Part shown: in pieces, positions 46,101 to 49,100 of the stretch
Layout of the letters: the number at the start of each line of letters is the position of its first letter
How positions within the stretch are numbered: the stretch's first letter is position 1
Source of the DNA: Escherichia coli
GTDB taxonomy: Bacteria > Pseudomonadota > Gammaproteobacteria > Enterobacterales > Enterobacteriaceae
Length of the DNA stretch: 64,000 nt
Direction: 5' to 3' (one strand)
Assembly (NCBI RefSeq): GCF_003334305.1
Contig: NZ_QOWS01000004.1
Position numbers: made by a program

Positions 46101-49100
46101 TATTGGTCGTTATTTATCATTTACCAGAGGTAACACATTAACTCAGATGGAATTCACCATAATGGGGTATATGGTTTCTGGTTATAATCCATATCAGATT
46201 GCTGAAGTTCTGGATATGGATATCCGTAGCATCTACGCGTACAAGCAACGAATCGAAAAGAGAATGGGTGGTAAAATAAACGAATTATTTATTCGTTCAC
46301 ATTCGGTCCAACATTGATACTCAACGACCAGCCAGAATCATACTCTGTTTATACGGGCATTTATTGAAATGTCCGTATTTTATAAATAGGCCGTCCCCTC
46401 AAGAGTAAACACCATAGTATTTAAAACCATCACACGAAAAATTCAGAAGCATTACGAAATATGAATTTACAAACAATAGTGGCATAAATGTTAACCATGT
46501 TAATTTACGTAAAGTTTTACGTTGCAACATTAAAGCCTCATTTCAATCATCATGATAAATATAAAATTAATATATATTTATGCCGTAAATACCAATATAC
46601 TTAGCAAACTATGTGATCTCCATTTCGATTGATTTAGTGTTTATTGACGTATGTACTGGATTATTAACGATAATATCGAGTTCTGGCCTGAGCACCGAAA
46701 ATTAATATCGGTACATAACGCCGATCTTAACGTCGTTCTGACAACGCCAGCCAGTCGATGTTTATCACTTCTACTTGAAGCTTTTCCTGATGTGGTTGCA
46801 CAACAAGATTTTTTCACCAGAGTCTGGGAAGAAGAAGGTATGCGTGTGCCTACTAACACGTTATATCAGAACATATCCATTATCAGACGCGGATTTCGCG
46901 CTGTTGGTGATACTACCCACTCGCTAATTGCAACCGTGCCGAGAAGAGGATTCAAGATCCATAATGACATTAACATACAAAATCATGTAATAAACTCGTC
47001 AACAGACGCACATACACACAATGCCCCACCTGCCATAAAAGTTAATGCGGGATACAAAGAGAGCATTGGTGGCGCAAAGAATTTCAATAACAAAATCCTC
47101 AAACATATAAAAAGTCATCTAATTATGTTGAGCGCATTTGTCATAGGCGCATATTCTGCATATTGGCTATGGAATAATAATCAACCGAAGCCATTTTTCA
47201 AGGATTACAAGACTGTTGCGGAAATTAATGGCTGCCATTTTAATGTAACAGAAGATACAATTGACGGGTTGAAAGAGTTCGATAAATATAAAACACGGAT
47301 ACTGGATTCGGGGATTAACTGTAAAAAACATCCGTGGTTATACTTCCCTCTTGCAAAATCCTCACCGGGGATGATTGTTATGGCATGCAATAAAAATTAT
47401 AACCAACATGAAGTGGCAGACTGTTTAACCCTGTCTTACCGTGAGGTTAATCGTGATTGATTATAAAAAAAACTTATTATTTATTTTAGTTTTTATCAGT
47501 GGGTTTATTCTCTTCACTGTCTATTCTTACACTGCAGAAAAAATGATATATAACGAAACATGCACTGCAAATTGGGTAATTTTTAATGACCAGGGACGAG
47601 CAAATCTTACCATCGACTTTATGTATAACAAAAAAAATAAAACAGGAACTGTTGCGTTGAGTGGAACCTGGCAACAAGGTAACAGAGAAAGTAAATCAAT
47701 ACGGCGAAATATTGAATACACATGGATTGAAAACTATGACACAGCCCATTTAACATCAAAGAAAGTTAATAAGTTTGAGATTATGGATCAAGTTGATGAT
47801 GATAGACTTGCACAACTTATTCCTGATTTTTATGTCTTTCCAGAAAAAAGTGTAAGCTATAATATACTAAAGCAAGGTAAGCATGCTTTTATTTTGAGCA
47901 TTGGTAACAGAGCAATAATGCATTGTGCAAGGTAAACTAAAATAGATAACAAAAAGATGGAACCTCGTTAATCATAAAACAATAAAATTAAATATTCTCG
48001 CAGTATATGGCAGTCTAAAGCATCAAAGTTTTGATCAACATCTTTCATTTTAGACATCTCCTTGCAATGTAAAATATCATGTATCAACAACATCTGGTGC
48101 AAATCCATGAGTCGAACTCGACATTCATCTTAGCTCGATTATTATTCCTTCGTACAGTCGATGTAAACAATACAGAAAGAGGATTATTAAGAACCAGTTT
48201 ACTCAGTGAATCAATAGAGGAAAGGACTAACGTTTCTTTAAAATAATTGATTTCATCATCTGTTAAACTAAACTCATCATTGACAGATCGTGAGATATAA
48301 CTGCTTTTAACTTTACTCTTTACGTTGACTTTATTGACAGAATTAACATTCACAAATCTTGAATTTAATGCCCATGATGTTGTTTGCGTGAGAACCTTCT
48401 CAGCATTAAGGAATTTTTTTAACGGAATCCTTGGTTTCTTTTTCGAGTCCGAATTTACAATATCATGCATATAGACCATTTCATGAATCTGCGAAAACTC
48501 AATGTCCATTATATACCTCACATTTTTACCGTGACTCGATGTTACTGTTCAATAATCACCTTCCATCAATACTAAAATTAATACCCCTAATGTGCCGATA
48601 ACAAATATAGTCATTCTACGTAACGTCTCCATAAGGTGATATTTGACATTATCAGAAGCTGCGAATTCGGATTTTGCTCTAATCAAATGAGAGAAATGTA
48701 AAATGAAGCCACGAAATATTAATAATAGCCTACCACTGCAACCATTAGTTCCTGATCAGGAGAACAAAAATAAGAAAAATGAAGAGAAATCCGTTAATCC
48801 AGTTAAAATCACAATGGGGTCTGGTTTAAATTATATTGAACAAGAATCTCTTGGAGGAAAATATCTAACACATGATTTGTCAATAAAGATAGCGGATATT
48901 TCTGAAGAGATAATTCAGCAAGCAATATTATCTGCTATGAGCATATATAAATTTTCGATAACAGATGATTTAATGAGTATGGCTGTAAATGAACTCATAA
49001 AACTGACCAAAATAGAGAATAATGTAGACCTGAATAAATTCACTACTATATGCACAGACGTTCTATCCCCCCGCGTCACCAGACATAATAAAGAAAAAAA

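What the first reader, a model, noticed from the sequence alone, without database searches (positions are those of the whole stretch)
46651..47935. yqeI-yqeJ resemble a ToxR/ToxS-type membrane regulator pair
YqeI combines a cytoplasmic OmpR-type winged helix, one TM helix and a periplasmic domain. YqeJ is a single-pass membrane protein whose GTG start overlaps the yqeI stop by 8 nt, suggesting translational coupling and a 1:1 complex like ToxR/ToxS or CadC. Together with yqeH, ygeH and etrA this makes five regulators concentrated in a degraded island.
Basis: inference. Interest (0 to 1): 0.5.

Follow-up and report, generated by a model that had tools for sequence, protein, structure and literature searches.

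The report
Known ToxR/ToxS-like membrane regulator pair
yqeI and yqeJ of E. coli do encode a membrane-anchored DNA-binding regulator and its periplasmic barrel-shaped partner of the ToxR/ToxS and VtrA/VtrC kind, but this was published in 2022, so the finding is correct and not new.

Summary
yqeI (46651-47460, 269 aa) and yqeJ (47453-47935, 160 aa, GTG start) overlap by 8 nt, exactly as RefSeq annotates them.

YqeI has an OmpR/ToxR-type winged helix whose best match among solved structures is the V. cholerae ToxR DNA-binding domain. A conserved hydrophobic segment follows, then a 92-aa domain with four cysteines.

All 17 yqeJ homologues found in other species, across 9 enterobacterial genera, have a yqeI homologue directly upstream. 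The 8-nt overlap is kept in 15 of the 16 loci with both genes intact. Flanking genes are not conserved, so the pair moves as a cassette. dN/dS of 0.12-0.17 indicates purifying selection.

Kinch et al. 2022 (PNAS, PMC9214523) list YqeI/YqeJ as a VtrA/VtrC-ToxR/ToxS-like "co-component" system and report that the periplasmic domains form a dimer. The signal and the direct targets remain unknown.

My single-chain fusion model of the complex was inconclusive.

Minor extra: an A8/A9 tract shifts the annotated yqeJ start codon in an O157:H7 strain.

The parts
46651..47460 (+). yqeI coding sequence, 269 aa: a membrane-bound transcription regulator.
   Evidence: ORF. RefSeq annotation 'yqeI, winged helix-turn-helix domain-containing protein'.
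46654..46959 (+). [quoted passage not shown]
   Evidence: Pfam Trans_reg_C covers residues 28-102, E 4.1e-9. The best solved-structure sequence match is the V. cholerae ToxR DNA-binding domain 8b4b, residues 2-103, E 1.6e-7, with the wing motif TVPRRGF aligned to TVPKRGY. This is the most conserved part among orthologues, at 71% mean identity.
46960..47115 (+). YqeI residues 104-155: poorly conserved linker that ends in a Lys-rich juxtamembrane stretch.
   Evidence: Mean identity is 18% among orthologues. There are 4 Lys and no acidic residue in the 18 residues before the hydrophobic segment.
47116..47178 (+). YqeI residues about 156-176: predicted single transmembrane helix, N-terminus inside.
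   Evidence: It is the hydrophobicity maximum of the protein. A hydrophobic segment occupies the same position in all 16 orthologues, with Kyte-Doolittle values of 1.35-2.67, while sequence identity there is only 27%. This is a prediction only.
47182..47457 (+). YqeI residues 178-269: small periplasmic domain with two putative disulfides, C195-C224 and C246-C258.
   Evidence: The model gives strand-strand-helix-strand-strand-strand at pLDDT 62-88. C246 and C258 are present in all orthologues. C195 and C224 are both Tyr in the Salmonella diarizonae locus L006, a paired loss.
47443..47446 (+). GAGG Shine-Dalgarno-like motif, 6 nt before the yqeJ GTG and inside the yqeI coding sequence.
   Evidence: Read from the sequence. 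A purine-rich GGAG/GAGG/GGGG motif sits at the same place in the orthologous loci. It also encodes the conserved YqeI motif FRG/YRE, so the two constraints cannot be separated.
47453..47460 (+). 8-nt overlap of the yqeJ start (GTG) with the yqeI stop (TGA).
   Evidence: RefSeq annotation. An overlap of exactly 8 nt is found in 15 of 16 orthologous loci with both genes intact; the exception is L003 at 14 nt.
47453..47935 (+). yqeJ coding sequence, 160 aa: the membrane-anchored periplasmic co-sensor.
   Evidence: ORF. RefSeq annotation 'protein YqeJ'. About 98 family representatives at 50% identity. Precomputed Pfam accession PF27292.
47465..47472 (+). A8 homopolymer in yqeJ codons 5-7.
   Evidence: Read from the sequence. 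The tract is A9 in O157:H7 WS4202, where the annotated start moves to a TTG and the overlap becomes 4 nt. The polymorphism is reported in PMC11186120.
47471..47539 (+). YqeJ residues about 7-29: N-terminal signal-anchor transmembrane helix.
   Evidence: Kyte-Doolittle 2.26 over residues 8-26, preceded by KK. The model has a continuous helix at 2-30. The hydrophobic run of about 20 residues is long for a cleaved signal peptide, and I saw no small-x-small cleavage motif (my reading of the sequence).
47549..47932 (+). YqeJ residues 33-160: periplasmic 8-stranded lipocalin-like barrel with Cys37 and Cys158 on the first and last strands.

Best explanation
yqeI-yqeJ is a two-gene 'co-component' transmembrane transcription regulator cassette of the ToxR/ToxS and VtrA/VtrC superfamily.

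YqeI sits in the inner membrane. Its ToxR-like winged-helix domain faces the cytoplasm and a small disulfide-containing domain faces the periplasm. YqeJ is made from the same mRNA. Its start codon overlaps the yqeI stop by 8 nt, which probably couples translation and keeps the two proteins in step. YqeJ is anchored by an N-terminal helix and exposes a VtrC/ToxS-like 8-stranded barrel in the periplasm.

By analogy with VtrA/VtrC and ToxR/ToxS, the two periplasmic domains form a heterodimer. That heterodimer binds a small hydrophobic host-derived signal (a bile-salt-like molecule is the obvious candidate) and/or protects YqeI from proteolysis. This would promote YqeI oligomerisation and DNA binding at the membrane.

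What is shown here: the gene anatomy, the domain architecture, the fold of YqeJ, strict co-occurrence and purifying selection. What is reported by others: co-expressed periplasmic domains form a dimer, and deleting yqeI in an avian pathogenic strain reduces flagella, motility, serum resistance, adhesion and colonisation. What is inferred: translational coupling, the nature of the ligand and the activation mechanism.
For: Gene anatomy and the 8-nt overlap.

YqeI DNA-binding domain: Pfam Trans_reg_C, and the best solved-structure sequence hit is the ToxR DNA-binding domain at E 1.6e-7.

Topology: hydrophobic segments and flanking lysines, conserved in position in 16 orthologues.

Conserved cysteines: C37 and C158 in YqeJ; C246/C258 and the co-varying C195/C224 in YqeI.

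Co-occurrence: all 17 yqeJ-homologue loci from 9 genera have a yqeI homologue directly upstream on the same strand. The 8-nt overlap is kept in 15 of 16 intact loci. Flanking genes are unrelated in other genera, so only the pair is conserved.

Selection: dN/dS is 0.12-0.17 for both genes.

Literature: PMC9214523 lists YqeI/YqeJ as a candidate co-component system with a YqeJ lipocalin fold and states that the periplasmic domains form dimeric complexes when co-expressed. PMC7552227 gives the yqeI deletion phenotypes in an avian pathogenic strain. PMC10269533 and PMC13042144 list the pair among co-component regulators.
Against: No sequence-level similarity links YqeJ to ToxS or VtrC, even with a 67-sequence profile. 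The link rests on fold and context.

My fusion model of the two periplasmic domains gave pTM 0.50 and pLDDT 75, so it does not establish an interface.

The YqeI periplasmic domain did not retrieve the ToxR or VtrA periplasmic domains among the top 50 Foldseek hits of that model.

No ligand, no target promoter and no effect of yqeJ on YqeI activity are known. The island around the pair is full of pseudogenes. Truncated yqeJ alleles are common in the protein database, although some may be contig-end artefacts.
Confidence: 0.87

Rival explanations
1. YqeJ acts mainly as a stabiliser of YqeI. It would shield the periplasmic domain from regulated proteolysis, as described for ToxS with ToxR and TcpH with TcpP, and would not itself be a ligand-binding sensor.
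For: The architecture and fold are the same as ToxS. PMC10269533 notes that partner proteins of these regulators act by inhibiting proteolysis or by stimulating heterodimer formation. Two conserved putative disulfides in the YqeI periplasmic domain recall the redox- and proteolysis-sensitive ToxR domain (established knowledge of ToxR).
Against: The barrel is as close to the bile-salt-binding VtrC as to ToxS, and ToxS is itself described as a bile sensor. The two roles are not mutually exclusive. Nothing here distinguishes them.
Confidence: 0.3
2. In K-12-like and commensal strains the pair is a silent leftover of the decayed ETT2 island with no current function. The overlap and co-occurrence would only reflect common descent.
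For: The surrounding type III secretion genes are frameshifted or carry stops. The etrA/ygeK-type gene has an internal stop. The region is absent from about a third of complete E. coli genomes: 3731 of 5426 have a match. Truncated YqeJ forms exist.
Against: Both genes are intact in the window. dN/dS is 0.12-0.17 against cryptic Escherichia clades, and 0.13 for yqeI against O157. The cassette is kept intact in 9 genera in unrelated contexts without any ETT2 genes nearby. Deleting yqeI has phenotypes in an avian pathogenic strain.
Confidence: 0.1
3. YqeI works alone as a one-component membrane regulator like CadC, and YqeJ is an unrelated periplasmic lipid-binding protein that merely shares the transcript.
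For: NCBIfam gives a weak match of YqeI to CadC, E 3e-4 over the DNA-binding region. My complex model is inconclusive.
Against: Co-occurrence is 17 of 17 and the overlap is conserved. The YqeJ fold matches the dedicated partners VtrC and ToxS better than any other solved structure. Co-expressed periplasmic domains are reported to form a dimer. The YqeI periplasmic domain is only 92 aa, far smaller than the two-subdomain CadC sensor.
Confidence: 0.03

Closest known systems
VtrA/VtrC of Vibrio parahaemolyticus, the bile-salt receptor controlling type III secretion system 2 (PDB 5KEV, 5KEW)
   Different: There is no detectable sequence similarity: 7% identity in the structural alignment and no profile hit. 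YqeJ has a conserved Cys37-Cys158 pair. YqeI has periplasmic cysteines, whereas VtrA is described as lacking the conserved disulfide. The ligand of YqeJ is unknown. The overlap is 8 nt with a GTG start, not the ATG-over-Cys-codon arrangement described for most cassettes.
ToxR/ToxS of Vibrio cholerae and V. parahaemolyticus (PDB 8ALO, 8U2F, 8B4B)
   Different: toxR and toxS do not overlap. The periplasmic domains have diverged beyond sequence recognition. The YqeI periplasmic model lacks the C-terminal helix described for ToxR and VtrA.
MarT/FidL (Salmonella SPI-3) and GrvA/FidL (E. coli O157:H7)
   Same: These are true sequence relatives of YqeI/YqeJ. The Salmonella diarizonae locus L006 encodes proteins about 39-40% identical to both, with the same 8-nt overlap. 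The literature calls MarT/FidL the orthologue and GrvA/FidL a paralogue. They share the disulfide-containing barrel.
   Different: The genomic contexts differ, and so do the known targets where any are known: misL for MarT, and LEE-dependent adherence for GrvA. In L006 the C195/C224 pair of the regulator is replaced by Tyr/Tyr.
CadC of E. coli
   Same: It has an N-terminal ToxR-like winged helix, one transmembrane helix and a periplasmic sensor. The sequence match is weak.
   Different: CadC has a large two-subdomain periplasmic sensor, and its co-sensor is the permease LysP, not a ToxS-like barrel (established knowledge). YqeI has a 92-aa periplasmic domain and a dedicated downstream partner.

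Membership tests
Co-component transmembrane transcription regulators (ToxR/ToxS, VtrA/VtrC superfamily) | The regulator has an N-terminal cytoplasmic OmpR/ToxR-type winged-helix DNA-binding domain. | tested here: met
   Pfam Trans_reg_C at E 4e-9. ToxR DNA-binding domain 8b4b at E 1.6e-7 over residues 2-103.
Co-component transmembrane transcription regulators (ToxR/ToxS, VtrA/VtrC superfamily) | The regulator has a single transmembrane helix with its C-terminal domain in the periplasm. | tested here: met
   There is one hydrophobic segment at about 156-176 with a Lys-rich cytoplasmic flank. It is positionally conserved in 16 orthologues. The C-terminal domain has four conserved Cys. This is a prediction, not a localisation experiment.
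Co-component transmembrane transcription regulators (ToxR/ToxS, VtrA/VtrC superfamily) | The regulator's periplasmic domain has the small alpha/beta fold of ToxR and VtrA. | tested here: inconclusive
   The model gives two strands, a helix and three strands at pLDDT 62-88. That is the order described for the family without the last helix. No ToxR or VtrA periplasmic chain appeared in the top 50 Foldseek hits of the fusion model.
Co-component transmembrane transcription regulators (ToxR/ToxS, VtrA/VtrC superfamily) | The partner gene lies immediately downstream on the same strand, adjacent or overlapping. | tested here: met
   8-nt overlap in the window. 17 of 17 loci have the pair adjacent. 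15 of 16 intact loci have the 8-nt overlap.
Co-component transmembrane transcription regulators (ToxR/ToxS, VtrA/VtrC superfamily) | The partner has a short cytoplasmic tail, a transmembrane anchor and a periplasmic lipocalin-like 8-stranded barrel of the VtrC/ToxS type. | tested here: met
Co-component transmembrane transcription regulators (ToxR/ToxS, VtrA/VtrC superfamily) | The two periplasmic domains form a heterodimer. | tested here: inconclusive
   The single-chain fusion model gave pTM 0.50, and no interface metrics are available. PMC9214523 reports that the domains form dimeric complexes when co-expressed; its supplement is not held.
Co-component transmembrane transcription regulators (ToxR/ToxS, VtrA/VtrC superfamily) | The periplasmic complex binds a small-molecule signal such as a bile salt, and this changes transcription. 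| not testable with these tools
   No ligand or reporter data were found in the papers searched.
YqeJ/FidL sequence family (disulfide-containing VtrC-like barrels; precomputed Pfam PF27292) | Sequence membership, plus conserved cysteines on the first and last barrel strands. | tested here: met
   PF27292 is assigned to the E. coli cluster and its relatives. C37 is invariant and C158 is at least 90% conserved in 67 members. These cysteines lie in strands 35-45 and 153-159 of the model. The Pfam-A copy used by the scan tool has no hit.
ToxS or VtrC as sequence families | Detectable sequence homology to ToxS or VtrC. | tested here: not met
   Neither phmmer nor a 67-sequence profile search against all PDB chain sequences gives a ToxS or VtrC hit at E up to 10. 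The relation is at fold and context level only, as also stated in PMC9214523.
CadC-type one-component regulators | A large two-subdomain periplasmic pH/lysine sensor and no ToxS-like partner. | tested here: not met
   The YqeI periplasmic domain is 92 aa. The NCBIfam CadC match scores 19.6 bits against a cut-off of 400 and covers only the DNA-binding region. A dedicated partner is present.

The most novel reading that the evidence does not exclude
The A8 tract in yqeJ codons 5-7 may act as a lineage-specific or slippage-prone switch of the co-sensor's translation start. With A8, yqeJ starts at a GTG with an 8-nt overlap and a 6-nt Shine-Dalgarno spacing. With A9, as in O157:H7 WS4202, the only in-frame start is a TTG with a 4-nt overlap and a 10-nt spacing. 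This could change the YqeJ:YqeI ratio, and so the set-point or stability of the regulator, in enterohaemorrhagic strains. The other open point is that the signal is not a bile salt but an unknown gut metabolite.
Probability: 0.12. Interest if true: 0.4.

Novelty: already known. Interest (0 to 1): 0.15.

Why it matters
ToxR/ToxS-type cassettes let enteric bacteria sense host signals such as bile directly at the membrane and switch on virulence genes. YqeI/YqeJ is the only such cassette in E. coli K-12 according to Kinch et al., and it is present in about two thirds of complete E. coli genomes. That makes it a convenient model for the family. Its ligand and direct targets are still unknown, so the open question is experimental, not one of recognition. 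For the genome scan, this finding is a correct re-derivation of published knowledge.

Tried and rejected
- The Pfam-A scan of YqeJ gave only noise, E 0.1-0.3. NCBIfam and PADLOC gave nothing for YqeJ.
- Sequence and profile searches of YqeJ against PDB chain sequences found no ToxS or VtrC.
It worked with 11 closer sequences.
- I built a single-chain fusion: YqeI 178-269, a 30-aa Gly/Ser linker, then YqeJ 30-160, with 16 paired and 36 unpaired rows. It gave pTM 0.50 and no interface read-out, so it neither supports nor refutes the complex.
- A fold search of that fusion recovered only the ToxS and VtrC hits, so the fold of the YqeI periplasmic domain stays untested.
- The promoter and terminator scan around the pair was at background level and is uninformative: 10 sites against 8.6 expected.
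- The GTG at 47441 was rejected as the start, because it overlaps the GAGG motif and has no counterpart in most orthologues.
- A cleaved signal peptide for YqeJ was rejected on the length of the hydrophobic run and the continuous helix 2-30 in the model.
- I did not count A8 and A9 alleles across all E. coli genomes. Allele-specific short queries would probably be masked by BLAST's low-complexity filter.
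Full report
**1. What is in the sequence**

The window region 46651-47935 holds two same-strand ORFs. The first runs 46651-47460 and encodes 269 aa. The second runs to 47935. Its longest form starts at the GTG at 47441, but there is an in-frame GTG at 47453.

RefSeq annotates these as yqeI and yqeJ. It does so in K-12 MC1061 (99.8% identical over the 1501-base query 46500-48000) and in strain A7 (100% identical over the 24-kb query). In both, yqeJ starts 8 nt before the end of yqeI.

The GTG at 47453 is preceded by GAGG at 47443-47446 with a 6-nt spacer. The GTG at 47441 is part of that motif.

The pair is chromosomal. 3,603 of 5,426 complete E. coli genomes carry most of the query.

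**2. YqeI**

- Pfam finds Trans_reg_C at residues 28-102.
- Against all PDB chain sequences, the best hits are the V. cholerae ToxR DNA-binding domain entries, E 1.6e-7 over residues 2-103. They include the wing motif.
- CadC and PhoB-type regulators follow far behind.
- A hydrophobic segment at about 156-176 follows a Lys-rich stretch.
- In 16 orthologues this segment keeps its position and hydrophobicity while sharing only 27% identity. The DNA-binding domain is 71% identical and the linker 18%.
- The last 92 residues carry four cysteines. C246 and C258 are kept in every orthologue. C195 and C224 are kept everywhere except the Salmonella diarizonae locus, where both are Tyr. That pattern is what a disulfide pair would show.
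- In a model, this domain has two strands, a helix and three strands at moderate confidence.

**3. YqeJ**

- The protein starts MIDYKKN, then has a hydrophobic run of about 20 residues (Kyte-Doolittle 2.26). It has exactly two cysteines, at 37 and 158.
- An exhaustive search of 1.8 billion cluster representatives found only 98 relatives at E up to 0.001, so the family is small.
- In an alignment of 67 full-length members, C37, G65 and G71 are invariant and C158 is at least 90% conserved.
- With that alignment, AlphaFold2 gives a mean pLDDT of 94.3. The model has a helix at 2-30, eight strands and one short helix.
- Foldseek against the whole PDB puts ToxS from two Vibrio species first, and VtrC follows.
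- Sequence methods see nothing. Pfam-A, NCBIfam and phmmer find no relation to ToxS or VtrC, and neither does a 67-sequence profile against PDB chains.
- The protein database carries a precomputed Pfam accession, PF27292, for this family.

**4. Co-occurrence**

A scan of one genome for each of about 100,000 species found 17 loci encoding a YqeJ relative. They come from Escherichia, Citrobacter, Salmonella, Kosakonia, Klebsiella, Trabulsiella, Yokenella, Buttiauxella and Enterobacter.

Every one has a yqeI homologue directly upstream on the same strand. In one locus (Enterobacter EA-1) both genes are broken, and in another (a Citrobacter assembly) both look damaged.

In 15 of the 16 loci with both genes intact, counting the window itself, the partner's start codon overlaps the regulator's stop by exactly 8 nt. 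In the sixteenth the overlap is 14 nt, because the regulator is two codons longer.

The flanking genes are not conserved outside Escherichia. They include allantoate amidohydrolase, a diguanylate cyclase, an OppA-like binding protein, PxpA and Agp. The unit that is conserved, and that appears in varied contexts, is the two-gene cassette.

**5. Selection**

Against two cryptic Escherichia lineages:

| Genes | Amino-acid identity | dN/dS |
|---|---|---|
| yqeG, yqeH | 94-98% | 0.01-0.03 |
| yqeI, yqeJ, ygeH | 62-71% | 0.12-0.18 |

The pair is under purifying selection but evolves several times faster than its left-hand neighbours. The break lies in the yqeH-yqeI intergenic region.

**6. The complex**

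I fused YqeI 178-269 to YqeJ 30-160 through a 30-residue Gly/Ser linker, with 16 paired rows from the loci and 36 unpaired YqeJ rows. The model had pLDDT 75 and pTM 0.50.

The tool gives no inter-domain error, so this neither supports nor refutes a heterodimer. A fold search of the fusion recovered only ToxS and VtrC.

**7. Literature**

- Kinch, Cong, Jaishankar and Orth (PNAS 2022, PMC9214523) searched enteric genomes for VtrA/VtrC-like cassettes. Their Table 1 lists 'E. coli K-12 ECK2845 YqeI / ECK2846 YqeJ lipocalin'.
- The same paper describes the conserved disulfide between the first and last barrel strands and calls YqeI/YqeJ the orthologue of Salmonella MarT/FidL. It also states that the periplasmic domains of YqeI and YqeJ form dimeric complexes when co-expressed.
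- The supplement with that experiment is not held.
- Later papers list YqeI with partner YqeJ among co-component transmembrane regulators.
- A yqeI deletion in an avian pathogenic strain loses flagella, motility, serum resistance, adhesion and colonisation (PMC7552227).
- A further search found no paper identifying the signal or the direct targets.

**8. Verdict**

CadC is not a paired system of this kind. One of the 'five regulators', the etrA/ygeK-type gene, carries an internal stop here.

The most likely mechanism is the family's. A membrane-tethered ToxR-like activator has a periplasmic domain that pairs with a VtrC/ToxS-like barrel. That barrel binds a hydrophobic host signal and/or protects the activator. 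The two are made in step from overlapping genes.

The architecture, fold, linkage and selection are shown. The dimer is reported by others. Coupling, ligand and activation are inferred.

Because all of this was published in 2022, the novelty is nil and the interest is low.

**9. Extras**

Kinch et al. do not flag YqeI/YqeJ as overlapping ORFs, yet the 8-nt overlap is annotated and conserved.

An A8 tract sits in yqeJ codons 5-7. In O157:H7 WS4202 it is A9, and RefSeq calls the gene from a TTG that overlaps the yqeI stop by 4 nt. This changes the N-terminus to MIIKKN but leaves the rest of the protein in frame. The polymorphism was noted as a strain marker in PMC11186120. Whether it alters expression of the co-sensor is untested.

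Noticed in passing
window 47465-47472 (A8) and 47630-47637 (A8); L020 1258-1275: An A8 homopolymer lies in yqeJ codons 5-7. In O157:H7 WS4202 it is A9, and RefSeq then starts yqeJ at a TTG that overlaps the yqeI stop by 4 nt (TTGA). The N-terminus becomes MIIKKN instead of MIDYKKN, and the rest stays in frame. PMC11186120 reports (A)8,(A)8 in K-12 genomes and (A)8,(A)9 in O157 genomes. The effect on expression is unknown.
   Followed up: partly
protein clusters P0023, P0026, P0050, P0055, P0005, P0018: Many truncated YqeJ forms are on record. One is a 99-aa form ending after residue 98, with 329 member sequences. Another is a 92-aa C-terminal fragment with 348 members. Some are frameshifted N-terminal fragments. 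Some may be real nonsense or frameshift alleles and others contig-end or gene-calling artefacts. I did not separate them.
   Followed up: no
window 45685-47460 compared with L002 and L003 (cryptic Escherichia): There is a sharp change of divergence between neighbours. yqeG and yqeH are 94-98% identical in protein with dN/dS 0.01-0.03. yqeI, yqeJ and ygeH are 62-71% identical with dN/dS 0.12-0.18. The boundary falls in the AT-rich yqeH-yqeI intergenic region. These loci also lack yqeK and ygeG between yqeJ and ygeH.
   Followed up: partly
L004 4483-5034(-), L006 4531-5061(-), L007 4481-5032(-), L009 4499-5074(-): In the Citrobacter, Salmonella and Klebsiella loci, a convergent ORF of about 176-191 aa lies just downstream of the yqeJ homologue. 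Of the three I scanned (L004, L006, L009), only the Klebsiella one gave a weak match, to a LuxR-type response-regulator model, and the other two matched nothing. It may be a third conserved member of the cassette in these genera.
   Followed up: partly
window 47453-47460 compared with PMC9214523 Table 1: Kinch et al. list YqeI/YqeJ among the few cassettes without overlapping reading frames. RefSeq and 15 of 16 orthologous loci show an 8-nt overlap of start and stop codons.
   Followed up: yes
window 52612-53244 (-): The etrA/ygeK-type LuxR-family regulator has an in-frame stop at codon 52 in this strain. One of the island's regulators is therefore a pseudogene here.
   Followed up: yes
window 57483-57983 (+) and 57985-58278 (+): A further small LuxR-type helix-turn-helix gene of 166 aa has weak FimZ/NarL/UhpA matches. 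It is followed by a 97-aa ORF with a weak match to the InvH invasion lipoprotein. Both lie inside the decayed type III secretion cluster.
   Followed up: partly
window 45685-46317 (+), yqeH: YqeH gives its best NCBIfam match to EcpR, the regulator of the E. coli common pilus operon. The match is E 1.7e-20, below the curated cut-off. So it is an EcpR-like LuxR-type regulator and not an orphan.
   Followed up: no
window 47968-48048 (-): RefSeq annotates a 26-aa hypothetical protein between yqeJ and yqeK on the opposite strand. I did not examine it.
   Followed up: no
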